Positions 9,926 to 22,120 of a DNA stretch of 64,000 bases are shown piece after piece. The notes under the pieces are model-generated. The model was not told where the DNA came from, did not search any database, and saw nothing but the letters and a program-made list of their open reading frames with translations. Source of the DNA: Escherichia coli (lineage in GTDB: Bacteria > Pseudomonadota > Gammaproteobacteria > Enterobacterales > Enterobacteriaceae); NCBI RefSeq assembly GCF_003334815.1, contig NZ_QOWO01000006.1. The stretch is one strand, 5' to 3'. The translations under genes and the position numbers were made by a program. The number at the start of each line of letters is the position of its first letter. Positions within the stretch are counted from its first letter, which is position 1.

Positions 9926-10028
9926 ATGCCGGATGCGGCGTGAACGCCTTATCCGGCCTACAAAACTTTGCAAATTCAATATATTGCAATCTCCGTGTAG
10001 GCCTGATAAGCGTAGCGCATCAGGCAAT
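9926..10028. repeat. BIME: two inverted REP elements downstream of glyA
   Basis: GCCGGATGCGGCGTGAACGCCTTATCCGGCCTAC and inverted copy GTAGGCCTGATAAGCGTAGCGCATCAGGC. Confidence 0.85.
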
Positions 10029-10085: not shown

Positions 10086-11280
10086 TCAAATCTGTCGTAA
10101 CTGCGCCTCAACATACAAATAGCCAATTCCCAGCACCTGTTGTGCGCGGCTTAATTGCCCAAAGCCAATTTGCGTCGCTTTCACGCTCGGTCCTTCGTCG
10201 CGGTCGAACGGGTTAAATCCTGTCTGGCGAATAATAGTATTAAGCCAGTTCTCACCAAAGGCACAACTGCGACCGTACAACCAAATCTGATTAATATTGA
10301 GGATGTTGAGGAAGTTATACAGACTCAAACCAATGGCATTGGCAGAGCGATCAACCCAGCTGGTGATCCACGGTTCTCCACTTTGCCAGGCAGCGATTAA
10401 CTGCGCTGTAGTCAGTTTTTCAGGATCAAGTTGAGTACTAACCGGTTGTGATTTTAGCCATACCCGCGCCTGTTTTTTTAATGCGCTTAACGAGGCGACG
10501 GTTTCCAGGCAGCCATAACGTCCACAGTCGCAGACGACGCCATCCGGATTAACGATGGTGTGACCAATCTGTCCGCTACCATACAAACTGCCGCGATAAA
10601 TTTGCTCGTTAATCACGAACGACGAGCCAATGCCGTAATCAACGTTGATCACGCAGAAATCCCGTTCCTGCGAATTATTTTGCCATTTCTCCGCCAGCGC
10701 CAGCATCACGCAGTCATTATCGACCATCACCCGAATGCCGAGCTTCTCTTCCAGCAGATATTTCACCTCCACCGGCGTTGTCCACGGCGCTTGCGGCATG
10801 GTTTGCGACACGCCGGTCACAGGATCAACCTGACCGTGGATTGCCAACGCCAGGTTGATGGTATGGTCCGGCCACAATTTACGGTGGCGATGCCAGCATT
10901 TTTTCGATTTCGGACAGCAGCGCCTGCGGCGTCGGTGCATCAATCTGTAAATACTCAAATTCACCTTTCGGACTTAAACAAGCATTAGCAACCTGACACT
11001 CAATACTGGTGGGCGTCACGTTCAGGCACAGCGTCCAGTCACCTTCCGGCGCAATCAGCCATGTACCGCTACTATGCCCGCGCGTCTGGCTTTCATCGTC
11101 AATATTCACCACCCGTTTTTCGCTTTCCAGTTCCTGCAAAATATTACTGACTGCCGGAATCGAAATTTGCGCCAGCCGGGCCAGCGTTGATTTATTGGCG
11201 CGCTTTTGCCGGTACAGCAGTTCCAGAATCACGCATTTGTTATGGTGGCGAATCTGTTGATTATTAATGCAGGCTCTCAT
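10086..11280 (-). pseudogene. yphH: ROK-family (NagC/XylR-like) transcriptional regulator, reading frame interrupted by an apparent +1 frameshift near 10879-10890
   Basis: Two overlapping minus-strand ORFs in different frames (10879..11286 N-terminal HTH part; 10086..10964 C-terminal ROK sugar-kinase fold); the span is one nt longer than an intact 397-codon gene. Confidence 0.5.
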
Positions 11281-11397
11281 CTTCACTAAACCTTGTTTAG
11301 TTAATTGCGTGATTATTCCGCGAAAACATTGCCAGATTGTTCAATACACTGCCACAAATCTTTTAATTCAGTATGTCTTGTTAATATTGAGGGCACC

Positions 11398-14300
11398 ATG
11401 ACTCCAGTAAAAGTGTGGCAAGAGCGCGTTGAGATCCCGACCTATGAAACCGGGCCGCAGGATATACATCCCATGTTCCTGGAAAATCGCGTTTATCAGG
11501 GATCGTCCGGCGCGGTTTATCCCTACGGCGTGACCGATACGCTGAGCGAGCAGAAAACCCTGAAATCCTGGCAGGCGGTGTGGCTGGAAAACGACTACAT
11601 CAAAGTGATGATCCTGCCGGAACTGGGCGGTCGGGTGCATCGCGCGTGGGATAAAGTGAAACAGCGCGATTTTGTTTATCACAATGAAGTCATTAAACCT
11701 GCGCTGGTGGGGCTGCTGGGGCCGTGGATTTCCGGTGGGATTGAGTTTAACTGGCCGCAACATCATCGCCCGACCACCTTTATGCCCGTTGATTTCACCC
11801 TCGAAGCCCATGAAGACGGTGCACAGACGGTGTGGGTAGGCGAAACGGAGCCGATGCATGGTTTACAGGTGATGACAGGTTTCACCCTGCGCCCTGACCG
11901 GGCGGCGCTGGAAATCGCCAGCCGCGTCTATAACGGGAACGCCACGCCGCGTCATTTCTTGTGGTGGGCCAACCCGGCAGTGAAAGGGGGGGAAGGGCAT
12001 CAGAGCGTCTTCCCGCCGGATGTAACGGCGGTGTTTGATCACGGCAAACGGGCCGTCTCCGCTTTCCCCATCGCTACCGGCACTTACTACAAAGTGGACT
12101 ACTCCGCTGGAGTGGACATTTCTCGCTATAAAAATGTGCCTGTTCCAACCTCATATATGGCCGAAAAATCGCAGTACGATTTTGTCGGCGCGTGGTGTCA
12201 CGATGAAGATGGCGGTTTGCTGCACGTTGCCAACCACCATATTGCGCCAGGTAAAAAACAGTGGAGTTGGGGACACAGTGAATTTGGCCAGGCGTGGGAT
12301 AAGAGTCTGACCGACAATAACGGCCCGTATATCGAACTGATGACCGGTATTTTTGCCGATAACCAGCCCGATTTTACCTGGCTTGATGCTTACGAAGAGA
12401 AGCGTTTTGAGCAGTATTTCCTGCCTTATCATTCTTTGGGCATGGTGCAAAATGCCTCCCGCGATGCGGTGATAAAACTCCAGCGTAGTAAGCGGGGGAT
12501 TGAGTGGGGGCTGTATGCCATCTCTCCGTTGAACGGATACCGCCTGGCGATCCGCGAAATCGGTAAATGCAACGCGTTACTTGATGATGCCGTGGCACTG
12601 ATGCCTGCGACCGCCATCCAGGGCGTGTTGCACGGTATCAATCCTGAAAGGCTGACCATTGAGCTCTCCGATGCCGACGGCAATATTGTACTGAGTTATC
12701 AGGAACATCAGCCGCAAGCGTTGCCGTTACCGGACGTCGCCAAAGCGCCACTGGCAGCACAAGACATTACCAGTACAGATGAAGCCTGGTTTATCGGTCA
12801 GCATCTGGAGCAATATCATCACGCCAGCCGTTCACCGTTCGATTACTACCTGCGCGGCGTGGCGCTGGACCCGCTGGATTATCGCTGTAACCTGGCGCTG
12901 GCGATGCTGGAATATAACCGCGCAGATTTCCCGCAAGCGGTGGCGTATGCCACTCAGGCTCTGAAACGCGCACATTCGCTGAACAAAAATCCGCAGTGCG
13001 GACAGGCGAGTTTGATTCGCGCCAGTGCTTACGAACGTCAGGGACAATATCAACAAGCCGAAGAGGATTTCTGGCGTGCGGTCTGGAGCGGCAACAGCAA
13101 AGCCGGTGGCTATTATGGCCTGGCACGACTGGCGGCGCGTAATGGTAACTTCGACGCTGGTCTGGATTTTTGCCAACAAAGTCTTCGCGCCTGCCCAACC
13201 AATCAGGAAGTGCTTTGCCTGCATAATCTGCTGCTGGTGTTAAGTGGTCGTCAGGACAACGCGCGTGTGCAGCGCGAGAAACTGCTGCGCGATTATCCGC
13301 TGAACGCCACTCTGTGGTGGCTGAACTGGTTCGATGGTCGTAGCGAATCAGCTCTCGCGCAGTGGCGCGGTCTGTGTCAGGGACGCGACGTTAACGCCCT
13401 GATGACCGCCGGGCAACTGATTAACTGGGGAATGCCCACCCTGGCGGCAGAGATGCTGAACGCACTGGACTGCCAGCGCACGCTGCCGCTTTACCTGCAA
13501 GCCAGCTTGCTGCCGAAAGCCGAACGTGGCGAACTGGTCGCAAAAGCCATTGATGTCTTCCCGCAGTTTGTCCGTTTCCCGAATACGCTGGAAGAAGTGG
13601 CGGCGCTGGAGAGTATTGAAGAGTGCTGGTTTGCTCGCCATTTACTAGCTTGCTTCTACTACAACAAACGTAGCTACAACAAAGCCATTGCCTTTTGGCA
13701 ACGTTGCGTAGAGATGTCGCCGGAGTTTGCCGACGGCTGGCGCGGGTTAGCGATCCATGCGTGGAATAAGCAACACGATTATGAGCTGGCCGCGCGTTAT
13801 CTTGATAATGCTTATCAGCTTGCGCCGCAGGATGCACGTCTGCTTTTCGAACGGGATTTGCTGGATAAGTTAAGTGGAGCCACACCGGAGAAACGACTGG
13901 CGCGTCTGGAAAATAATCTGGAAATTGCGCTGAAACGCGACGACATGACCGCAGAACTGCTCAATTTGTGGCATCTCACGGGTCAGGCAGACAAAGCGGC
14001 GGACATTCTCGCCACGCGCAAATTCCACCCGTGGGAAGGCGGGGAAGGGAAGGTCACCAGTCAGTTTATCCTCAACCAGTTATTACGCGCCTGGCAGCAT
14101 CTTGATGCCAGACAGCCGCAGCAGGCCTGCGAACTGCTTCATGCCGCGCTGCATTATCCGGAGAATTTAAGCGAAGGCCGTTTACCGGGGCAAACTGATA
14201 ACGACATCTGGTTCTGGCAGGCGATATGCGCCAACGCGCAGGGCGATGAAACTGAAGCGACGCGTTGTTTACGTCTGGCGGCGACCGGCGATCGCACTAT

Positions 14301-14679
14301 TAACATTCACAGTTATTACAACGATCAGCCGGTTGATTATCTCTTCTGGCAAGGGATGGCGCTGCGACTGCTGGGCGAACAACAAACCGCACAGCAACTG
14401 TTTAGTGAAATGAAACAGTGGGCGCAAGAGATGGCGAAAACCAGTATCGAAGCGGATTTCTTTGCCGTCTCGCAACCTGACTTGTTGTCGCTGTATGGCG
14501 ATTTACAACAGCAGCATAAAGAAAAATGCCTGATGGTGGCGATGCTGGCGTCCGCGGGACTCGGGGAGGTTGCGCAATATGAGTCTGCTCGCGCTGAATT
14601 GACGGCGATTAATCCGGCTTGGCCGAAAGCGGCATTATTCACCACCGTGATGCCTTTTATTTTTAACCGCGTTCACTAA
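11398..14679 (+). CDS. yphG: large conserved protein of unknown function with C-terminal TPR-like repeats, 1093 aa
   Basis: Track ORF 11305..14679; start chosen at ATG 11398 preceded by GAGGG RBS; C-terminal half shows repeated TPR-like helical pattern. Confidence 0.85.
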   Translation: MTPVKVWQERVEIPTYETGPQDIHPMFLENRVYQGSSGAVYPYGVTDTLSEQKTLKSWQAVWLENDYIKVMILPELGGRVHRAWDKVKQRDFVYHNEVIKPALVGLLGPWISGGIEFNWPQHHRPTTFMPVDFTLEAHEDGAQTVWVGETEPMHGLQVMTGFTLRPDRAALEIASRVYNGNATPRHFLWWANPAVKGGEGHQSVFPPDVTAVFDHGKRAVSAFPIATGTYYKVDYSAGVDISRYKNVPVPTSYMAEKSQYDFVGAWCHDEDGGLLHVANHHIAPGKKQWSWGHSEFGQAWDKSLTDNNGPYIELMTGIFADNQPDFTWLDAYEEKRFEQYFLPYHSLGMVQNASRDAVIKLQRSKRGIEWGLYAISPLNGYRLAIREIGKCNALLDDAVALMPATAIQGVLHGINPERLTIELSDADGNIVLSYQEHQPQALPLPDVAKAPLAAQDITSTDEAWFIGQHLEQYHHASRSPFDYYLRGVALDPLDYRCNLALAMLEYNRADFPQAVAYATQALKRAHSLNKNPQCGQASLIRASAYERQGQYQQAEEDFWRAVWSGNSKAGGYYGLARLAARNGNFDAGLDFCQQSLRACPTNQEVLCLHNLLLVLSGRQDNARVQREKLLRDYPLNATLWWLNWFDGRSESALAQWRGLCQGRDVNALMTAGQLINWGMPTLAAEMLNALDCQRTLPLYLQASLLPKAERGELVAKAIDVFPQFVRFPNTLEEVAALESIEECWFARHLLACFYYNKRSYNKAIAFWQRCVEMSPEFADGWRGLAIHAWNKQHDYELAARYLDNAYQLAPQDARLLFERDLLDKLSGATPEKRLARLENNLEIALKRDDMTAELLNLWHLTGQADKAADILATRKFHPWEGGEGKVTSQFILNQLLRAWQHLDARQPQQACELLHAALHYPENLSEGRLPGQTDNDIWFWQAICANAQGDETEATRCLRLAATGDRTINIHSYYNDQPVDYLFWQGMALRLLGEQQTAQQLFSEMKQWAQEMAKTSIEADFFAVSQPDLLSLYGDLQQQHKEKCLMVAMLASAGLGEVAQYESARAELTAINPAWPKAALFTTVMPFIFNRVH

Positions 14680-14775
14680 ACCCTATTAACTGTAATATTT
14701 GAGCGGCACGCGCTGCCGCTCATCACAAAATAATTAGAATAAGCCGTTGTTAATAAAAACCCTACAGGAGGCTCT

Positions 14776-15759
14776 ATGCCTACAAAAATGAGAACAACCC
14801 GTAATCTATTATTAATGGCTACGCTATTAGGTAGCGCACTATTTGCCAGGGCTGCGGAAAAAGAAATGACCATTGGCGCAATATACCTTGATACTCAGGG
14901 ATACTACGCTGGAGTGCGTCAGGGCGTTCAGGATGCGGCAAAAGATTCCTCAGTACAAGTTCAGTTAATAGAAACTAACGCCCAGGGTGATATTTCGAAA
15001 GAAAGTACCTTTGTTGATACCCTCGTGGCGCGTAATGTCGATGCCATTATTTTATCGGCAGTGTCTGAAAATGGCAGTAGCCGTACCGTTCGTCGCGCCA
15101 GTGAAGCGGGCATTCCGGTGATTTGCTACAACACCTGTATTAATCAAAAGGGGGTCGATAAATATGTCTCGGCGTATCTGGTCGGCGATCCGCTGGAATT
15201 TGGTAAAAAACTGGGTAACGCTGCCGCTGATTATTTTATTGCCAATAAAATTGACCAGCCGAAAATTGCCGTCATCAATTGCGAAGCCTTTGAAGTTTGT
15301 GTGCAGCGACGTAAAGGATTTGAAGAAGTTTTAAAATCCCGCGTTCCCGGCGCGCAAATTGTCGCTAATCAGGAAGGGACTGTTTTAGATAAAGCGATTT
15401 CCGTTGGTGAAAAACTAATTATCTCCACGCCGGATCTCAACGCCATTATGGGGGAATCGGGCGGTGCGACACTCGGCGCGGTAAAAGCGGTACGTAATCA
15501 AAATCAGGCCGGAAAAATTGCTGTTTTCGGTTCGGATATGACAACCGAAATTGCTCAGGAGCTGGAAAACAATCAGGTGCTGAAAGCGGTAGTGGATATT
15601 TCCGGTAAGAAAATGGGCAATGCTGTTTTCGCGCAAACATTGAAGGTTATCAATAAACAAGCCGACGGTGAAAAAGTGATTCAGGTGCCTATCGATCTCT
15701 ATACCAAAACGGAAGACGGTAAACAGTGGCTGGCAACGCACGTTGATGGTCTGCCCTAA
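14776..15759 (+). CDS. yphF: ABC transporter periplasmic sugar-binding protein (ribose/LacI-type fold), 327 aa
   Basis: 327-aa ORF with N-terminal signal peptide (LLLMATLLGSALFARA) and periplasmic binding protein family-1 features. Confidence 0.9.
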   Translation: MPTKMRTTRNLLLMATLLGSALFARAAEKEMTIGAIYLDTQGYYAGVRQGVQDAAKDSSVQVQLIETNAQGDISKESTFVDTLVARNVDAIILSAVSENGSSRTVRRASEAGIPVICYNTCINQKGVDKYVSAYLVGDPLEFGKKLGNAAADYFIANKIDQPKIAVINCEAFEVCVQRRKGFEEVLKSRVPGAQIVANQEGTVLDKAISVGEKLIISTPDLNAIMGESGGATLGAVKAVRNQNQAGKIAVFGSDMTTEIAQELENNQVLKAVVDISGKKMGNAVFAQTLKVINKQADGEKVIQVPIDLYTKTEDGKQWLATHVDGLP

Positions 15760-15781
15760 TCGCTGATTCGCAGAGGTCCCT

Positions 15782-17293
15782 ATGTTCACGGCAACAGAGG
15801 CAGTCCCGGTAGCAAAAGTGGTGGCAGGAAATAAGCGTTATCCCGGCGTCGTTGCGCTGGATAACGTTAACTTCACGCTCAATAAAGGCGAAGTTCGTGC
15901 GCTGTTAGGTAAAAACGGCGCGGGCAAATCGACTCTCATTCGAATGCTTACCGGCAGCGAACGCCCGGATAGCGGTGATATCTGGATTGGCGAGACGCGA
16001 CTGGAAGGTGACGAAGCTACGCTGACTCGCCGTGCCGCTGAACTGGGGGTGCGCGCGGTTTATCAGGAGTTAAGTCTGGTGGAAGGGCTGACAGTGGCGG
16101 AAAACCTCTGCCTCGGTCAGTGGCCCCGCCGCAACGGCATGATTGATTACCTGCAAATGGCGCAGGATGCCCAACGTTGCTTACAGGCGCTGGGCGTTGA
16201 CGTTAGTCCTGAACAACTTGTTTCAACGCTAAGCCCGGCGCAAAAGCAGCTGGTGGAAATTGCGCGGGTGATGAAGGGCGAGCCGCGCGTGGTCATTCTT
16301 GATGAACCTACCAGTTCGCTTGCGAGTGCGGAAGTTGAACTGGTGATCAGCGCGGTGAAAAAGATGTCGGCACTGGGCGTGGCGGTGATTTATGTCAGCC
16401 ACCGGATGGAAGAAATTCGCCGCATTGCCTCCTGTGCCACCGTTATGCGCGATGGTCAGGTGGCGGGCGATGTGATGCTCGAAAACACCTCCACGCATCA
16501 TATTGTGTCGCTGATGCTCGGGCGCGATCACGTTGATATTGCGCCGGTAGCCCCTCAGGAAATTGTGGATCAGGCCGTGCTGGAAGTCCGTGCGTTACGC
16601 CATAAGCCCAAGCTGGAGGATATCAGTTTTACGCTACGTCGTGGCGAAGTGCTCGGCATTGCTGGTCTGCTGGGGGCAGGGCGCAGTGAATTGCTGAAGG
16701 CGATTGTTGGGCTGGAGGAGTATGAACAGGGCGAAATTGTTATCAACGGCGAGAAAATCACGCGCCCCGATTACGGCGACATGCTGAAACGCGGCATTGG
16801 CTATACGCCAGAAAACCGCAAAGAAGCGGGGATCATTCCCTGGTTGGGCGTTGACGAAAATACAGTGCTGACCAATCGGCAAAAAATCAGCGCCAACGGT
16901 GTGCTGCAATGGTCCACCATCCGCCGCCTGACCGAAGAGGTGATGCAGCGGATGACGGTCAAGGCCGCCAGTAGCGAAACACCCATCGGCACGCTTTCTG
17001 GTGGCAATCAGCAAAAAGTGGTGATCGGTCGTTGGGTCTATGCTGCCAGCCAGATTTTGTTGCTCGACGAGCCAACGCGCGGCGTCGATATCGAAGCCAA
17101 ACAGCAGATTTACCGTATTGTCCGTGAGCTGGCTGCCGAAGGAAAAAGCGTGGTGTTTATCTCCAGTGAAGTGGAGGAGTTGCCGCTGGTGTGTGACCGC
17201 ATCCTGTTATTACAGCACGGCACGTTCTCGCAGGAGTTTCACGCTCCGGTCAATGTGGATGAGCTGATGTCCGCCATTCTGTCTGTGCACTGA
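15782..17293 (+). CDS. yphE: ABC transporter ATP-binding protein with duplicated ATPase domains, 503 aa
   Basis: Walker A GKNGAGKST, signature LSGGNQQK and Walker B LLLDEPT motifs; two-domain sugar ABC ATPase architecture. Confidence 0.92.
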   Translation: MFTATEAVPVAKVVAGNKRYPGVVALDNVNFTLNKGEVRALLGKNGAGKSTLIRMLTGSERPDSGDIWIGETRLEGDEATLTRRAAELGVRAVYQELSLVEGLTVAENLCLGQWPRRNGMIDYLQMAQDAQRCLQALGVDVSPEQLVSTLSPAQKQLVEIARVMKGEPRVVILDEPTSSLASAEVELVISAVKKMSALGVAVIYVSHRMEEIRRIASCATVMRDGQVAGDVMLENTSTHHIVSLMLGRDHVDIAPVAPQEIVDQAVLEVRALRHKPKLEDISFTLRRGEVLGIAGLLGAGRSELLKAIVGLEEYEQGEIVINGEKITRPDYGDMLKRGIGYTPENRKEAGIIPWLGVDENTVLTNRQKISANGVLQWSTIRRLTEEVMQRMTVKAASSETPIGTLSGGNQQKVVIGRWVYAASQILLLDEPTRGVDIEAKQQIYRIVRELAAEGKSVVFISSEVEELPLVCDRILLLQHGTFSQEFHAPVNVDELMSAILSVH

Positions 17294-17317
17294 TGAATTT
17301 TACCGAGGAACCTGAAG

Positions 17318-18316
17318 ATGTCTGCTTCGTCATTACCATTGCCGCAGGGCAAGAGCGTCTCGCTCAAACAATTTGTCAGTCGCCATATTAATGAGATCGG
17401 TTTGCTGGTGGTGATTGCCATTCTTTATCTGGTCTTCTCCCTGAACGCGCCTGGCTTTATCTCATTGAATAACCAGATGAACGTGCTGCGCGATGCCGCC
17501 ACCATTGGGATTGCCGCCTGGGCGATGACGCTGATTATTATCTCCGGTGAAATTGATGTCAGCGTTGGGCCGATGGTGGCTTTTGTCTCGGTGTGCCTGG
17601 CATTTTTGCTGCAATTTGAAGTTCCGCTGGCGGTGGCGTGCCTGCTGGTGTTGCTGTTAGGCGCGCTGATGGGAACGCTGGCCGGGGTGCTGCGCGGCGT
17701 GTTTAATGTACCAAGTTTCGTTGCCACACTGGGGCTGTGGAGCGCCCTGCGCGGAATGGGGCTGTTTATGACGAACGCACTGCCAGTGCCGATTGATGAA
17801 AACGAGGTGCTGGACTGGCTGGGCGGACAATTTCTCGGTGTGCCGGTATCCGCGCTGATCATGATTGTGTTGTTTGCGCTGTTTGTGTTCATCAGCCGCA
17901 AAACCGCCTTCGGGCGCTCGGTTTTTGCCGTTGGCGGTAATGCTACGGCGGCGCAGTTGTGCGGCATCAACGTTCGTCGGGTGCGCATTCTTATCTTTAC
18001 CCTTTCGGGATTATTAGCGGCGGTGACCGGCATTTTGTTGGCGGCGCGCCTCGGTTCTGGTAACGCAGGTGCCGCAAACGGTCTGGAGTTTGACGTCATC
18101 GCCGCGGTCGTGGTCGGCGGTACGGCACTTTCCGGCGGTCGCGGTTCCCTGTTCGGTACATTGCTTGGTGTGCTGGTGATTACGCTAATCGGTAACGGTC
18201 TGGTGCTGCTCGGTATTAACTCCTTTTTCCAGCAGGTGGTACGCGGCGTCATCATCGTGGTGGCGGTGCTGGCGAATATCTTGCTGACCCAGCGAAGCAG
18301 TAAAGCGAAACGCTAA
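17318..18316 (+). CDS. yphD: ABC transporter permease (ribose/xylose-type), 332 aa
   Basis: Highly hydrophobic multi-TM ORF directly after the ATPase gene. Confidence 0.9.
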   Translation: MSASSLPLPQGKSVSLKQFVSRHINEIGLLVVIAILYLVFSLNAPGFISLNNQMNVLRDAATIGIAAWAMTLIIISGEIDVSVGPMVAFVSVCLAFLLQFEVPLAVACLLVLLLGALMGTLAGVLRGVFNVPSFVATLGLWSALRGMGLFMTNALPVPIDENEVLDWLGGQFLGVPVSALIMIVLFALFVFISRKTAFGRSVFAVGGNATAAQLCGINVRRVRILIFTLSGLLAAVTGILLAARLGSGNAGAANGLEFDVIAAVVVGGTALSGGRGSLFGTLLGVLVITLIGNGLVLLGINSFFQQVVRGVIIVVAVLANILLTQRSSKAKR

Positions 18317-18381
18317 ACCTTAACGCCCCTGGCGCGGGTGCGGCAGGGATGAAAATTAATCGTATTGTTAATGAGGGATTT

Positions 18382-19443
18382 ATGAAAACGATGCTGGCAG
18401 CTTATTTACCAGGAAATTCGACCGTCGATCTGCGGGAAGTTGCGGTGCCGACGCCGGGGATTAACCAGGTACTGATCAAAATGAAATCCTCCGGGATTTG
18501 CGGAAGCGATGTCCACTATATCTATCATCAACACCGTGCCACAGCGGCGGCACCCGATAAACCGTTATACCAGGGCTTTATCAACGGTCATGAACCGTGC
18601 GGGCAGATTGTGGCGATGGGGCAAGGCTGCCGCCATTTTAAAGAGGGCGACCGCGTGCTGGTGTATCACATTTCTGGCTGTGGTTTTTGCCCGAACTGCC
18701 GTCGCGGTTTTCCTATTTCTTGTACTGGCGAAGGAAAAGCGGCTTACGGCTGGCAGCGTGACGGCGGTCATGCCGAATACTTGCTGGCGGAAGAAAAAGA
18801 TCTGATCCTCCTGCCGGATGCGCTGAGCTACGAAGATGGTGCGTTTATCAGTTGCGGCGTTGGTACAGCGTATGAAGGAATTTTGCGCGGCGAAGTTTCC
18901 GGCAGTGATAACGTGCTGGTGGTCGGTCTGGGGCCAGTCGGCATGATGGCGATGATGCTGGCGAAAGGTCGCGGTGCAAAACGGATCATCGGCGTTGATA
19001 TGCTGCCGGAACGTCTGGCGATGGCAAAACAGTTAGGGGTGATGGATCACGGCTATTTAGCAACCACCGAAGGTCTGCCGCAGATTATCGCCGAACTCAC
19101 CCACGGTGGCGCGGATGTTGCGCTCGATTGTTCCGGTAATGCCGCAGGTCGCTTGCTGGCACTGCAATCCACCGCTGACTGGGGACGGGTGGTTTACATT
19201 GGTGAAACCGGAAAAGTGGAATTCGAGGTCAGCGCCGATCTGATGCACCATCAACGGCGGATTATCGGCTCCTGGGTGACCAGTCTGTTCCATATGGAAA
19301 AATGCGCCCATGATCTGACGGACTGGAAGCTGTGGCCGCGTAACGCCATTACCCATCGCTTCTCGCTGGAACAGGCAGGTGATGCCTATGCGCTGATGGC
19401 GAGCGGCAAATGCGGGAAAGTTGTGATTAACTTCCCGGATTAA
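18382..19443 (+). CDS. yphC: zinc-dependent alcohol/polyol dehydrogenase (MDR family), 353 aa
   Basis: Track ORF 18349..19443; start MKTMLAAY; catalytic-zinc motif GICGSDVHY and structural Cys cluster CGFCPNCRRG; Rossmann VVGLGPVG. Confidence 0.88.
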   Translation: MKTMLAAYLPGNSTVDLREVAVPTPGINQVLIKMKSSGICGSDVHYIYHQHRATAAAPDKPLYQGFINGHEPCGQIVAMGQGCRHFKEGDRVLVYHISGCGFCPNCRRGFPISCTGEGKAAYGWQRDGGHAEYLLAEEKDLILLPDALSYEDGAFISCGVGTAYEGILRGEVSGSDNVLVVGLGPVGMMAMMLAKGRGAKRIIGVDMLPERLAMAKQLGVMDHGYLATTEGLPQIIAELTHGGADVALDCSGNAAGRLLALQSTADWGRVVYIGETGKVEFEVSADLMHHQRRIIGSWVTSLFHMEKCAHDLTDWKLWPRNAITHRFSLEQAGDAYALMASGKCGKVVINFPD

Positions 19444-19454
19444 GGAGTTAGCGG

Positions 19455-20327
19455 ATGACCATCTATACCTTATCCCACGGGTCGCTAAAGCTGGACGTTT
19501 CTGACCAGGGCGGCGTAATCGAAGGCTTCTGGCGCGATACGACGCCGCTCTTACGTCCTGGTAAAAAAAGCGGTGTGGCAACCGATGCCTCATGTTTTCC
19601 GCTGGTGCCATTTGCAAACCGGGTGAGCGGCAATCGTTTTGTCTGGCAGGGGCGTGAGTATCAACTGCAACCGAATGTTGAGTGGGATGCGCACTATCTA
19701 CACGGCGATGGCTGGCTGGGCGAGTGGCAATGTGTCTCGCACAGCGATGATAGTTTGTGTCTGGTGTATGAACATCGCAGCGGTGTCTATCACTATCGGG
19801 TAAGTCAGGCGTTTCATTTAACGGCGGATACGCTGACGGTGACGCTCTCTGTCACCAATCAAGGGGCAGAGACGCTGCCATTTGGTACCGGCTGGCATCC
19901 TTATTTTCCGTTGTCGCCGCAAACGCGGATTCAGGCACAGGCGAGCGGTTACTGGCTGGAGCGGGAGCAGTGGCTGGCGGGTGAGTTTTGCGAGCAGCTA
20001 CCGCAGGAACTGGATTTTAACCAGCCCGCGCCGTTGCCGCGCCAGTGGGTGAACAATGGTTTTGCCGGATGGAATGGTCAGGCCCGCATCGAGCAGCCGC
20101 AGGAAGGTTATGCCATCATCATGGAAACGATGCCACCTGCACCGTGTTATTTCATCTTTGTTTCCGACCCTGCGTTTGATAAAGGATATGCGTTTGATTT
20201 CTTCTGTCTGGAACCGATGAGCCATGCGCCGGATGATCATCATCGCCCGGAAGGGGGTGATCTCATTGCGCTAGCACCAGGGGAATCAACAACTTCAGAG
20301 ATGTCGTTGCGGGTAGAGTGGCTGTAA
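19455..20327 (+). CDS. yphB: aldose 1-epimerase (mutarotase)-like protein, 290 aa
   Basis: 290-aa ORF with mutarotase-family character, adjacent to the sugar ABC transporter. Confidence 0.85.
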   Translation: MTIYTLSHGSLKLDVSDQGGVIEGFWRDTTPLLRPGKKSGVATDASCFPLVPFANRVSGNRFVWQGREYQLQPNVEWDAHYLHGDGWLGEWQCVSHSDDSLCLVYEHRSGVYHYRVSQAFHLTADTLTVTLSVTNQGAETLPFGTGWHPYFPLSPQTRIQAQASGYWLEREQWLAGEFCEQLPQELDFNQPAPLPRQWVNNGFAGWNGQARIEQPQEGYAIIMETMPPAPCYFIFVSDPAFDKGYAFDFFCLEPMSHAPDDHHRPEGGDLIALAPGESTTSEMSLRVEWL

Positions 20328-20336
20328 TTTATTAAA

Positions 20337-20369
20337 TGCCGGATAAGGCGTTCACGCCGCATCCGGCAT
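20337..20369. repeat. REP element
   Basis: GCCGGATAAGGCGTTCACGCCGCATCCGGCATC palindromic unit between convergent yphB and yphA. Confidence 0.85.
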
Positions 20370-20374
20370 CTTTC

Positions 20375-20797
20375 CTAACGCCGATCGAGAGAAATTGCCC
20401 CCGGCCCGGTAATTGCCAATAGCAAGAACGCGCCAGCGATACTGACATTCTTCCAGAAATTAATCATATTTGGCCCAACCGCATCGCCGGTCATATCCCA
20501 GTAATGGTGACCAATCACCGCCGTACCCAGCGTGTAGAAAATAAACAGCACCGCCAGCGGACGGGTGAAAAAGCCAAGCACGATTAATATCGCGGCGGGC
20601 ACTTCCATAACTACCGCAATAATCGCTGCCAGCATCGGCATTGGCGCGCCCAACGAGGCCATATATTGGACCGTACCGTCAAAGCCCATCATTTTGGGAA
20701 AACCAAAAATAATGAAAATTAAGACCACGGCGATACGGGCAATTAATAACAAAACGGGGCGGGCAGCTCCAAAATCAAAATAACGTAGTGTGTTCAT
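20375..20797 (-). CDS. yphA: DoxX-family inner membrane protein, 140 aa
   Basis: Track ORF 20375..20869; start MNTLRYFDF; four predicted TM helices. Confidence 0.85.

Positions 20798-20893: not shown

Positions 20894-22120
<1,227 letters not shown>

What the first reader, a model, noticed from the sequence alone, without database searches (positions are those of the whole stretch)
10086..20797. Uncharacterised sugar-utilisation-like cluster: yphH / yphG-yphF-yphE-yphD-yphC-yphB / yphA
A ROK regulator gene is divergent from a co-directional, tightly spaced run encoding a 1093-aa protein with a TPR-like C-terminal half (YphG), a periplasmic sugar-binding protein, a double-domain ABC ATPase, a permease, a zinc polyol/alcohol dehydrogenase and a mutarotase-like protein. 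That is a complete import-plus-oxidation-plus-epimerisation module whose substrate is not known to me. YphG is exceptionally large for a catabolic cluster and has no obvious catalytic motif that I can read. The block is flanked by REP elements and by the hca aromatic-acid operon, so it looks like an accessory catabolic island between glyA and the isc operon.
Basis: partly seen in the sequence, partly recalled or inferred. Interest (0 to 1): 0.5.

Follow-up and report, generated by a model that had tools for sequence, protein, structure and literature searches.

The report
E. coli yph galactose-linked sugar cluster
This is the long-annotated but never characterised yph gene cluster of E. coli; comparison with other bacteria suggests that it imports and oxidises galactose or a similar sugar, and that its giant protein YphG belongs to a large, unstudied enzyme family found beside galactose-releasing enzymes.

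Summary
The genes are real and lie at the stated coordinates: yphH / yphG-F-E-D-C-B / yphA of Escherichia coli, all still named "putative" in the K-12 reference. Three corrections apply. In this window yphH is broken by a +1 T frameshift. The cluster is in every one of 5,426 complete E. coli genomes, so it is core rather than accessory. YphG is not featureless.

YphG has an N-terminal DUF5107 domain with an aldose-1-epimerase fold, then a small beta domain and a true TPR solenoid. It has about 130 invariant residues across phyla. The mutarotase acid histidine is replaced by an invariant Asn.

Two separate sets of genomic neighbourhoods point to galactose. Full-length YphG homologues in Bacteroidota, Firmicutes and Bifidobacterium sit beside a regulator, a sugar transporter, a small mutarotase and alpha- or beta-galactosidases. 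The yphFEDCB block occurs without yphG in Acidisoma, Vibrio and others, beside galactonate dehydratase.

Best reading, inferred and not shown: YphDEF imports a galacto-configured sugar or small galactoside; YphG processes it, probably by hydrolysis; YphB sets the anomer; YphC oxidises C1; the product feeds the dgo pathway. No paper or structure assigns a function. Interest is moderate.

The parts
9928..10026 (.). Two REP-type palindromic elements between glyA and yphH (9928-9962 and 9998-10026)
   Evidence: Read directly from the sequence: gccggatgcggcgtgaacgccttatccggcctac and gtaggcctgataagcgtagcgcatcaggc.
10086..11280 (-). yphH, a ROK-family (NagC/Mlc-like) transcriptional regulator. In this window it is a pseudogene: a +1 T in the run at 10899-10904 shifts the frame after about codon 126.
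   Evidence: The gene is split into ORFs 10879-11286 and 10086-10964. There is a single-base insertion relative to an otherwise identical genome. It is shared with 1 of 5,406 genomes, where it is annotated 'frameshifted'. The intact 397-aa version matches Mlc (E 2e-30) and NagC (E 5e-32), both below their equivalog cut-offs.
11283..11318 (.). Conserved non-coding element next to the yphH start codon (TTCACTAAACCTTGTTTAGTTAATTGCGTGATTATT). It is a candidate YphH operator or shared control region.
   Evidence: Alignment of yphH-yphG intergenic regions from 17 Enterobacterales and Aeromonas loci. The 9-mer ATTGCGTGA is present in 14 of 17. No consensus sigma-70 promoter was found in this intergenic region. 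The function is inferred only.
11398..14679 (+). yphG, 1093 aa, cytoplasmic. Residues ~1-345 are DUF5107 with an aldose-1-epimerase fold, ~357-435 a second beta domain, and ~460-1092 a TPR solenoid. It is a probable carbohydrate-active enzyme of unknown reaction.
14702..14722 (+). GC-rich hairpin (gagcggcacgcgctgccgctc) in the 96-bp yphG-yphF spacer. A second terminator-like hairpin with a T-run lies at 14631-14664, inside the 3' end of yphG.
   Evidence: Sequence read and pattern scan. The scan total, 22 found against 13.6 +/- 4.4 expected, is not strong evidence. The role is unknown; it could set different mRNA levels for yphG and yphFEDCB.
14776..15759 (+). yphF, periplasmic substrate-binding protein of a CUT2 (monosaccharide-type) ABC importer
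   Evidence: NCBIfam best matches are AlsB, MglB, LsrB and RbsB, all far below their cut-offs. The nearest PDB entry is 5hsg. It is 49-53% identical to the binding proteins of the yphC-containing blocks in L085, L086, L088 and L090.
15782..17293 (+). yphE, ABC ATPase with two nucleotide-binding domains
   Evidence: Matches AraG, XylG, AlsA and MglA at E 1e-124 to 1e-136, below their equivalog cut-offs.
17318..18316 (+). yphD, ABC permease (BPD_transp_2 type)
   Evidence: Matches RbsC and AraH at E 1e-65 to 1e-67.
18349..19443 (+). yphC, Zn-dependent medium-chain dehydrogenase; proposed aldose (galactose-type) 1-dehydrogenase. K-12 and the orthologues start at the internal Met, 11 codons downstream (18382).
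   Evidence: Pfam ADH_N, Glu_dehyd_C and ADH_zinc_N. No NCBIfam equivalog is reached. Orthologues of 61-75% identity lie directly upstream of an Aldose_epim gene and beside galactonate-dehydratase-class enzymes. The K-12 CDS is 1062 nt. dN/dS 0.003-0.04.
19455..20327 (+). yphB, aldose 1-epimerase family protein; proposed to supply the anomer used by YphC
   Evidence: Matches PDB 3nre over its full length (1-290, E 3e-209). hhalign against GalM gives probability 98.6%. It is 42-50% identical to the epimerases that follow YphC orthologues elsewhere, but only 31-36% identical to the YphB-like genes of yphG-MFS modules.
20339..20368 (.). REP element between yphB and yphA
   Evidence: Sequence read: gccggataaggcgttcacgccgcatccggc.
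20375..20797 (-). yphA, DoxX-family inner-membrane protein. It is a convergent neighbour and probably not part of the sugar module.
   Evidence: Annotation. It lies on the opposite strand behind a REP. In other Enterobacterales it sits on the other side, next to yphH.

Best explanation
The block is the E. coli yph cluster, a functional but uncharacterised sugar-utilisation locus assembled from two modules that both point to galactose-type sugars.

Module 2 (yphF-E-D-C-B):
- YphDEF is a CUT2 ABC importer. It takes up a galacto-configured aldose (most likely D-galactose; D-fucose or L-arabinose are possible) or a small galactoside.
- YphB interconverts the anomers.
- YphC oxidises C1 with NAD(P)+ to the aldonolactone.
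- The lactone opens to D-galactonate, which E. coli's separate dgoRKADT operon degrades. Together this would be a De Ley-Doudoroff-type route parallel to the Leloir pathway.

Module 1 (yphH-yphG):
- YphH is the ROK repressor of the divergent operon.
- YphG is a cytoplasmic enzyme that needs no nucleotide cofactor. Its catalytic domain derives from the aldose-1-epimerase fold, and the TPR solenoid probably closes over it.
- YphG most probably acts just before YphB and YphC, releasing or reshaping galactose from an imported small galactoside. Hydrolysis is the favoured reaction.

In this particular strain yphH is frameshifted, so the operon would be derepressed if YphH is a repressor.

Shown: gene identities, folds, conservation, purifying selection and genomic associations. 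Inferred: substrate, reaction chemistry, the link to dgo, and regulation.
For: Identity and integrity:
- establish the genes.
- All six + strand genes have dN/dS of 0.003-0.10 against E. albertii and Enterobacter.

Module 2:
- YphC orthologues (61-75% identical) occur without yphG in Acidisoma (L085), Vibrio nigripulchritudo (L086), L088 and L090.
- There they form the block GntR | binding protein - ATPase - permease - dehydrogenase - Aldose_epim.
- The adjacent MR_MLE enzymes pass NCBIfam's equivalog cut-off for galactonate dehydratase: 339, 577 and 339 bits against a cut-off of 311.
- The Vibrio enzyme is 53% identical to E. coli DgoD over its full length.
- L090 also carries an SGL-family lactonase.
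- YphC carries the Pfam 'Glucose dehydrogenase C-terminus' domain.
- E. coli K-12 has dgoRKADT.

Module 1:
- Full-length YphG homologues of about 40% identity exist in 59 non-enterobacterial species genomes.
- 42 of these 59 have a galactosidase-like glycoside hydrolase within 10 kb, and 48 of 59 have a galactosidase or a mutarotase. The families are BT4151-like GH2, GH35, GH36, GH97 and other GH2.
- The immediate neighbours are most often a sugar-porter MFS transporter (28 loci), AraC (27), ROK (17) or the GH2 (19).
- Further contexts: GH29+GH110+GH27+MFS+YphG+GH2, and AraC+ABC+YphG+GH36.
- A small mutarotase accompanies YphG in three forms: YphB-like, GalM, or the DUF4432-like family c44.

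YphG as an enzyme:
- About 130 invariant columns across phyla, rich in His, Asp, Glu and Trp.
- A chain of profile matches: DUF5107 to c44 (probability 96.8%, E 3e-10), c44 to YphB (85%), YphB to GalM (98.6%).

Against a need for nucleotide cofactors, and for action on glycans:
- 13 of 98 distant family representatives have signal peptides.
- One is fused to a CBM9-like module.
- One secreted member lies between a GH16 and sulfatases in a SusC/SusD locus.

The insertion of yphFEDCB exactly between yphG and the MFS transporter and mutarotase of the ancestral module (L005, L006, L008 against L009-L022) argues that the two modules serve one substrate.
Against: - No biochemical, genetic or expression datum links yph to galactose. 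The only expression hit, YphF up on levoglucosan against fructose, rises together with MalE, XylF, MglA and UgpB, a broad co-induction that is not yph-specific; I read it as general catabolite derepression, an inference.
- From my own knowledge, E. coli K-12 galK mutants do not grow on galactose. Either the pathway is silent under laboratory conditions or the true substrate is not free galactose.
- YphC, YphF and YphB reach no curated equivalog cut-off. YphC's best named relatives are threonine and scyllo-inosose dehydrogenases.
- L085, L090 and L092 also carry an SDR next to the dehydratase. That is more typical of non-phosphorylative deoxy-sugar routes such as fucose.
- The E. coli cluster has no lactonase.
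- No known glycoside hydrolase uses a mutarotase-fold catalytic domain.
- The most conserved YphG loops are modelled at pLDDT below 50, and I had no coordinates, so no active-site geometry supports hydrolysis.
- CUT2 and sugar-porter transporters mostly carry monosaccharides. That fits a YphG acting on free sugar at least as well as one acting on a glycoside.
Confidence: 0.45

Rival explanations
1. YphG is not a hydrolase. It is a sugar-interconverting enzyme acting on free galactose: a specialised mutarotase, a pyranose-furanose interconverting enzyme, or an epimerase or isomerase. The rest of the cluster works as in the best explanation.
For: YphG has an aldose-1-epimerase fold and a profile link to that family. 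The equivalent of the first mutarotase histidine (H122) is retained. The usual partner transporters are monosaccharide types: sugar porter and CUT2. The only product common to the alpha- and beta-galactosidases found nearby is free galactose. YphF and its Firmicute counterparts resemble furanose-binding proteins such as RbsB and YtfQ.
Against: The general-acid histidine of mutarotases (GalM His170/175) is an invariant Asn (N192) in YphG. A bona fide mutarotase (GalM, YphB or c44) is nearly always encoded alongside, which would make a second one redundant. A 1,093-aa protein with about 130 invariant residues, secreted relatives, and a CBM9 fusion suits a glycan-acting enzyme better.
Confidence: 0.25
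2. The cluster imports a rare sugar or polyol. YphC is a polyol dehydrogenase that makes a ketose or aldose, YphB epimerises it, and YphG is an accessory protein of unknown role. The substrate is unrelated to galactose.
For: YphC's closest named families are polyol or secondary-alcohol dehydrogenases: Tdh, IolM, xylitol dehydrogenase and GatD. YphF also resembles rhizopine and allose binding proteins. No equivalog cut-off is met by any Yph protein.
Against: The dehydrogenase-epimerase gene pair is conserved in four unrelated genomes, which implies a hemiacetal (aldose) substrate. Galactonate-dehydratase-class enzymes are adjacent in three of the four, and a lactonase in one. YphG's own neighbourhoods independently point to galactosides.
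Confidence: 0.15
3. YphG is a cytoplasmic sugar sensor or scaffold. The mutarotase-like domain binds the ligand, and the TPR binds a partner such as YphH or the transporter. It has no catalytic role.
Against: The partner regulator switches between unrelated families (ROK and AraC, and a hybrid two-component regulator gene in L083) while YphG stays about 40% identical over 1,070 residues. Some relatives are secreted, fused to CBM9 or an EEP domain, or embedded in SusC/SusD loci between GH16 and sulfatases. The invariant residues are dominated by His, Asp, Glu and Trp, typical of carbohydrate active sites.
Confidence: 0.1
4. The cluster is a cryptic or decaying remnant in E. coli with no current function.
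For: yphH is frameshifted in this window and in strain 52F4. yphG is split in one representative E. coli genome, L003. No phenotype is known.
Against: The cluster is present in 5,426 of 5,426 genomes. dN/dS is 0.003-0.10 for all six structural genes. The yphH lesion occurs in only 1 of 5,406 other genomes.
Confidence: 0.03

Closest known systems
De Ley-Doudoroff (oxidative) D-galactose pathway: galactose mutarotase, galactose 1-dehydrogenase, lactonase, DgoD/DgoK/DgoA
   Same: yphC-yphB form a dehydrogenase-mutarotase pair behind a monosaccharide ABC importer. In Acidisoma, Vibrio and a third genome the orthologous block sits beside galactonate-dehydratase-class enzymes and, once, a lactonase. 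E. coli carries dgoRKADT.
   Different: From my own knowledge, the textbook galactose 1-dehydrogenases of Pseudomonas are not Zn-dependent MDR enzymes. YphC is of the MDR type, like archaeal glucose/galactose dehydrogenases (Pfam Glu_dehyd_C). The E. coli cluster has no lactonase or dehydratase, so the lower pathway would have to be supplied in trans. No activity has been measured.
Aldose 1-epimerase (galactose mutarotase, GalM; Pfam PF01263)
   Different: There is no direct sequence or profile match to GalM or YphB. The general-acid histidine is an invariant Asn (N192). YphG has many extra invariant loops, a second beta domain and a 630-residue TPR solenoid, giving three to four times the size of a mutarotase. 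A true mutarotase is encoded alongside.
PDB 5cd6 (BDI_1685, Parabacteroides distasonis; structural-genomics 'TPR-domain containing protein', 580 aa)
   Different: It is half the length, about 20% identical, and has no published function, so it gives no functional transfer.
Multidomain glycoside hydrolases and polysaccharide lyases that pair a beta-sandwich with an alpha-helical domain (for example GH15, GH65, GH94, GH95, PL8, PL15)
   Same: YphG also combines a mutarotase-like beta-sandwich with a large helical domain. It also occurs in polysaccharide-utilisation loci, and the family has both cytoplasmic and secreted members.
E. coli mgl (methyl-galactoside / galactose) CUT2 ABC system
   Same: YphFED have the same transporter architecture. 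MglB and MglA are among the best matches for YphF and YphE. From my own knowledge, Mgl also carries small galactosides, which makes import of a galactoside through a CUT2 system plausible.
   Different: The scores are far below the equivalog cut-offs (58 bits against 420 for MglB). The ligand of YphF is unknown.

Membership tests
Aldose 1-epimerase / galactose mutarotase family (for YphG) | Galactose-mutarotase-like beta-sandwich fold | tested here: met
Aldose 1-epimerase / galactose mutarotase family (for YphG) | Detectable sequence or profile homology to PF01263 members | tested here: inconclusive
   Direct hhalign against GalM or YphB finds nothing (probability below 2%). Homology appears only through the intermediate family c44: 96.8%, then 85%, then 98.6%.
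Aldose 1-epimerase / galactose mutarotase family (for YphG) | Catalytic His / His / Glu set (GalM His96/104, His170/175, Glu304/309) | tested here: not met
   Transitive alignment maps the first His to H122 (kept) and the second, general-acid His to the invariant N192 in the WWANPA motif. The Glu could be E313 or E333; the alignment there is unreliable.
TPR repeat proteins (YphG C-terminal half) | Tandem 34-residue helix-turn-helix repeats recognisable by sequence and structure | tested here: met
Any established glycoside hydrolase or lyase family (for YphG) | Sequence or fold match to a characterised CAZyme catalytic domain | tested here: not met
Any established glycoside hydrolase or lyase family (for YphG) | Measured glycosidic bond cleavage | not testable with these tools
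   This needs enzyme assays.
CUT2 monosaccharide ABC importer (YphFED) | Peripla_BP_4-type binding protein, a single fused two-domain ATPase, and a BPD_transp_2 permease | tested here: met
   NCBIfam matches to the Rbs, Ara, Als, Mgl and Xyl components. Orthologous blocks carry these Pfam domains.
CUT2 monosaccharide ABC importer (YphFED) | Assignment to a specific characterised system (equivalog) | tested here: not met
   All scores are far below the curated cut-offs, for example AlsB 64 against 335 and MglB 58 against 420.
Oxidative (De Ley-Doudoroff-type) galactose pathway, upper part (YphC and YphB) | Aldose 1-dehydrogenase gene coupled to a mutarotase gene and a sugar importer | tested here: met
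   The ADH-Aldose_epim pair lies behind or beside the ABC genes in E. coli and in L085, L086, L088 and L090.
Oxidative (De Ley-Doudoroff-type) galactose pathway, upper part (YphC and YphB) | Genomic linkage to galactonate dehydratase and the lower pathway | tested here: inconclusive
   Linkage is met in L085, L086 and L090: NF010624 scores of 339, 577 and 339 against a cut-off of 311, and 53% identity to E. coli DgoD for L086. It is absent in L088. In E. coli, dgo is unlinked.
Oxidative (De Ley-Doudoroff-type) galactose pathway, upper part (YphC and YphB) | NAD(P)+-dependent oxidation of D-galactose at C1 by YphC | not testable with these tools
   This needs an enzyme assay. YphC meets no NCBIfam equivalog.
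ROK-family repressors (YphH) | N-terminal DNA-binding domain plus a ROK sugar-kinase-like domain | tested here: met
   The intact allele aligns to Mlc over residues 9-334 and to NagC. PMC4288165 lists it as the third, uncharacterised ROK repressor of E. coli. In this window the gene is frameshifted.

The most novel reading that the evidence does not exclude
YphG founds a new class of carbohydrate-active enzyme. Its catalytic centre would have evolved from the aldose-1-epimerase sugar pocket (first His kept, acid His replaced by Asn, many new invariant acidic and aromatic loops) and would be clasped by a TPR solenoid. It would cleave or rearrange a galactose-containing small glycoside. That would make DUF5107 (more than 1,100 clusters at 50% identity, in E. 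coli, gut Bacteroidota and Firmicutes, Bifidobacterium, marine flavobacteria and phagotrophic protists) a previously unrecognised glycoside hydrolase family. It would also give core E. coli a second, oxidative route for galactose carbon.
Probability: 0.3. Interest if true: 0.75.

Novelty: new variant of a known kind. Interest (0 to 1): 0.55.

Why it matters
The yph genes are among the unexplained 'y-genes' of the best-studied bacterium. They are core to the species and under strong purifying selection.

This analysis turns 'unknown sugar' into a short list of testable substrates: galactose, fucose, arabinose and small galactosides. It also predicts a route, through galactonate into the dgo pathway.

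YphG represents a very large, cross-phylum protein family that sits in galactan- and galactoside-degrading loci of gut, soil and marine bacteria and has no assigned activity. Finding its reaction would fill a recurrent gap in annotated polysaccharide-utilisation loci. It might also define a new enzyme family built on a mutarotase scaffold.

The natural yphH frameshift in this strain offers a ready-made derepressed background for experiments.

Tried and rejected
- **Literature.** Ten full-text searches used yph gene names, DUF5107, PF17128, IPR033396, b-numbers, BDI_1685, 5CD6 and BT4151. They gave no functional study. The levoglucosan proteomics hit for YphF rises together with MalE, XylF, MglA and UgpB, a broad co-induction that I read as general catabolite derepression, so I rejected it as evidence about the substrate.
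- **Direct profile comparison.** Comparing DUF5107 with GalM or YphB gave nothing. Only the bridge through family c44 worked.
- **The catalytic Glu.** Low-stringency alignment to place it gave an unreliable, non-conserved position. I do not claim E313 or E333.
- **Function by fold.** Foldseek against AFDB50 returned only 'DUF5107 domain-containing protein' and generic TPR proteins. PDB sequence searches returned only designed TPRs and 5cd6.
- **Inositol reading.** YphC scores 169 bits against IolM, whose cut-off is 450, and no iol genes are nearby. Rejected.
- **YphG as the missing lactonase.** Rejected, because most YphG loci have no dehydrogenase.
- **Downstream enzymes.** Searching recurrent YphG neighbours for kinases or isomerases found none. 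The remaining recurrent neighbours were unrelated housekeeping genes.
- **Promoters.** The promoter and terminator scan was uninformative: counts were at or near chance, with no consensus promoter in the yphH-yphG spacer.
- **Model coordinates.** They were not available to me, so no active-site geometry could be examined.

Full report
**1. What is there**

The window is Escherichia coli chromosome. The 10.7-kb block matches all 5,426 complete E. coli genomes, and 5,371 of them over at least 80% of its length. Annotated records name the genes yphH / yphG-yphF-yphE-yphD-yphC-yphB / yphA, between glyA and the hca operon.

The ORFs lie at the stated coordinates. The gaps within the co-directional run are 96, 22, 24, 32 and 11 bp.

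REP palindromes lie between glyA and yphH (9928-9962, 9998-10026) and between yphB and yphA (20339-20368).

A T-run at 10899-10904 has six T, where 5,405 of 5,406 other genomes have five. This splits the 397-codon gene into two frames. The one genome that shares the change, strain 52F4, is annotated 'frameshifted'. It differs from the window at other sites. Two different assemblies therefore carry the change, though a homopolymer assembly error cannot be excluded.

**2. The cluster is functional and core, not an accessory island**

Besides being universal in E. coli, all six + strand genes show strong purifying selection. dN/dS against E. albertii and an Enterobacter species is 0.003-0.10.

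**3. What is known**

K-12 RefSeq still labels every product 'putative', and YphG as 'DUF5107 domain-containing protein'. YphH is described as the third, uncharacterised ROK repressor of E. coli (PMC4288165) and is listed among transcription factors of unknown function in 2022 (PMC9308461).

Ten full-text searches found no functional work on the operon, on DUF5107 or on PDB 5cd6. One proteomics paper saw YphF rise on levoglucosan relative to fructose. It rose together with MalE, XylF, MglA and UgpB, a broad co-induction that is not yph-specific and that I read as catabolite derepression (PMC8753852).

**4. The ordinary parts**

- YphF, YphE and YphD are a CUT2-type monosaccharide ABC importer. 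Their best matches are the Als, Mgl, Rbs, Ara and Xyl components, all far below the curated cut-offs.
- YphC is a Zn-dependent medium-chain dehydrogenase with no equivalog.
- YphB is PDB 3nre, a structural-genomics aldose 1-epimerase-like protein.
- YphH aligns with Mlc and NagC.
- YphA is a DoxX membrane protein on the other strand. In other genera it sits on the far side of yphH, so I do not count it as part of the module.

**5. YphG**

Pfam finds DUF5107 at residues 39-324 (E 3e-55), plus TPR repeats.

The family is large. More than 1,100 clusters at 50% identity score E < 1e-30, and nearly all are about 1,100 aa. Full-length homologues of about 40% identity occur in Bacteroidota, Lachnospiraceae, Paenibacillus, Bifidobacterium and marine flavobacteria.

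An alignment of 78 homologues has about 130 invariant columns. They are concentrated in the N-terminal 345 residues:
- GPWISGGIEFNWPQHHRP
- FLWWANPA
- DHGKR
- GKKQW-W
- W-D..LTD..GPYIELM.G...DNQPDF

Further invariant motifs lie in the helical part, including FHPWEGGEGK at 876-885.

An AlphaFold2 model (pLDDT 85.6, pTM 0.88) shows a beta domain (1-345), a second small beta domain (357-435) and an all-helical region (460-1092). The most conserved loops are the least confidently modelled.

Direct profile comparison of DUF5107 with GalM or YphB fails. A small mutarotase-like family, c44 (weak Pfam hits to DUF4432 and Aldose_epim), is encoded next to YphG in Paenibacillus and Ruminiclostridium, and it bridges the gap:
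- DUF5107 to c44: probability 96.8%, E 3e-10
- c44 to YphB: 85%
- YphB to GalM: 98.6%

Through this chain the first active-site histidine of mutarotases maps to YphG H122, which is kept. The general-acid histidine maps to the invariant N192. The catalytic glutamate could not be placed reliably; E313 and E333 are both invariant. YphG is therefore a divergent member of the mutarotase superfamily and cannot be a canonical mutarotase.

Close homologues lack signal peptides. Of 98 more distant representatives, 13 have one. One is fused to a CBM9-like module and another to an EEP-family domain. One secreted member sits between a GH16 and sulfatases in a SusC/SusD locus. A family that works on both sides of the membrane and acquires a carbohydrate-binding module is most simply a carbohydrate-active enzyme that needs no nucleotide cofactor.

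**6. Neighbourhoods of YphG**

I called ORFs in 80 species-level loci and clustered them. The recurrent neighbours are:

| Neighbour | Loci |
|---|---|
| AraC-type regulator | 46 |
| ROK regulator (Enterobacterales, Aeromonas, Photobacterium) | 18 |
| XylE-like sugar-porter MFS transporter | 42 |
| GH2 close to the exo-beta-1,4-galactosidase BT4151 / PDB 8u01 | 28 |
| GH35 | 10 |
| GH36 | 9 |
| GalM | 8 |
| GH97 retaining alpha-galactosidase | 5 |
| Other GH2 | 6 |
| Sulfatases (marine) | 6 |
| SusC/SusD | 11-12 |

Of the 59 loci outside the enterobacterial group, 42 carry a galactosidase-like enzyme within 10 kb, and 48 carry a galactosidase or a mutarotase. Two additional, more distant contexts read GH29-GH110-GH27-MFS-YphG-GH2 and AraC-ABC-YphG-GH36. 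The only product common to these alpha- and beta-galactosidases is galactose.

The minimal conserved unit is regulator + monosaccharide-type transporter + YphG + small mutarotase.

**7. Neighbourhoods of YphC**

Orthologues of 61-75% identity occur without yphG in Acidisoma, Vibrio nigripulchritudo and two further genomes. There they form the block GntR | binding protein - ATPase - permease - dehydrogenase - aldose epimerase. Within that block the binding protein is 49-53% identical to YphF and the epimerase 42-50% identical to YphB.

In three of the four genomes an enolase-superfamily enzyme lies beside the block and exceeds NCBI's equivalog cut-off for galactonate dehydratase: 339, 577 and 339 bits against 311. 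The Vibrio enzyme is 53% identical to E. coli DgoD, and the regulators are 29-39% identical to DgoR. One locus adds an SGL-type lactonase.

A dehydrogenase that always travels with a mutarotase works on a hemiacetal. I therefore read YphC as an aldose 1-dehydrogenase for a galacto-configured sugar, with YphB supplying the anomer.

E. coli has dgoRKADT elsewhere.

E. coli YphB is closer to these epimerases (42-50%) than to the YphB-like genes of the yphG-MFS modules of Citrobacter, Cedecea, Hafnia and Aeromonas (31-36%). In L005, L006 and L008 the order is G-F-E-D-C-B-MFS, against G-MFS-B' elsewhere. The E. coli cluster is therefore a mosaic. Module 2 (yphFEDCB) was inserted into module 1 (yphH-yphG-MFS-mutarotase), and the MFS gene was later lost.

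**8. Proposed mechanism (inferred)**

1. YphDEF imports galactose, a congener, or a small galactoside.
2. YphG releases or reshapes the sugar. Hydrolysis is favoured; isomerase- or mutarotase-type chemistry is the main rival.
3. YphB equilibrates the anomers.
4. YphC oxidises C1.
5. The lactone opens to galactonate, which enters the Dgo pathway.
6. YphH represses the operon through a conserved element beside its own start. The 9-mer ATTGCGTGA is present in 14 of 17 loci.

In this strain the yphH frameshift should relieve repression.

**9. Weaknesses**

- There are no biochemical or genetic data.
- No Yph protein meets a curated equivalog.
- From my own knowledge, E. coli galK mutants do not use galactose, so the route is silent or the substrate is not free galactose.
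- The SDRs next to some dehydratases hint at deoxy-sugar variants.
- No glycosidase with a mutarotase-fold catalytic domain is known.
- I could not inspect model coordinates.

**10. Verdict**

The cluster is a known kind of system, a sugar-utilisation operon, carrying one truly unassigned and widespread enzyme family. Interest is moderate (0.55). It would be high if YphG proves to be a new glycoside-hydrolase class.

Noticed in passing
window 10899-10904 (within yphH): A +1 T in a homopolymer (T6 against T5) frameshifts the ROK regulator gene. Only 1 of 5,406 other complete E. coli genomes shares it (strain 52F4, calf, Switzerland). That genome differs from the window at other positions, so two assemblies carry the change. 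It could be a natural derepressing mutation or a homopolymer assembly error.
   Followed up: partly
window 14631-14664 and 14702-14722: A terminator-like hairpin with a T-run lies inside the last codons of yphG, and a GC-rich hairpin without a T-run lies in the 96-bp yphG-yphF spacer. Together they might uncouple yphG and yphFEDCB mRNA levels. Scan counts were only modestly above chance.
   Followed up: no
window 18349-18382 (yphC start): PGAP annotates a 364-aa YphC here. K-12 RefSeq and all orthologues start at the internal Met 11 codons downstream (353 aa; about 97% query coverage in every alignment). The shorter form is probably the real one.
   Followed up: partly
window 11283-11318: A non-coding element abuts the yphH start codon and is conserved from E. 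coli to Aeromonas. The 9-mer ATTGCGTGA is present in 14 of 17 loci. No consensus sigma-70 promoter lies in the spacer, which suggests activator-dependent (for example CRP-dependent) expression.
   Followed up: partly
L003:2286-5657 (E. coli SCPM-O-B-8794): In this representative E. coli genome yphG is split into ORFs of 841 and 244 aa. Occasional strains therefore lose yphG even though the gene is under strong purifying selection overall.
   Followed up: no
window 20894-22111 (hcaD): hcaD reads as one intact ORF in the window, but it is annotated as frameshifted, with an internal stop, in the near-identical genomes NZ_AP022105.1 and strain 52F4.
   Followed up: no
P0150 (764 aa, metagenomic representative): Its first ~55 residues resemble, from memory, the N-terminal motif of GH95 fucosidases/galactosidases (LPIGNG..GAMV.GG), and the sequence then continues directly into DUF5107. 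This is either a real fusion or a chimeric contig.
   Followed up: no
L093:10001-13303; P0258; P0198: Distant DUF5107-TPR proteins can be secreted (13 of 98 representatives). One sits between a GH16 and sulfatases in a SusC/SusD locus, one carries a C-terminal CBM9-like module, and one carries an EEP (Exo_endo_phos) domain.
   Followed up: partly
PMC8163842 (literature): A DUF5107 orthogroup is one of the gene families that statistically mark the phagotrophic lifestyle among 30 stramenopile genomes, listed beside digestive enzymes. The family therefore also exists in eukaryotic grazers.
   Followed up: no
L014 and L020 (Citrobacter), upstream of the yphH homologue: In Citrobacter the sugar-porter gene is replaced by a divergent set: a ChiP-like porin, a 972-aa unassigned protein, a GH36 alpha-galactosidase and a GPH (melibiose-type) symporter. 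This is a variant of module 1 that clearly targets alpha-galactosides.
   Followed up: partly
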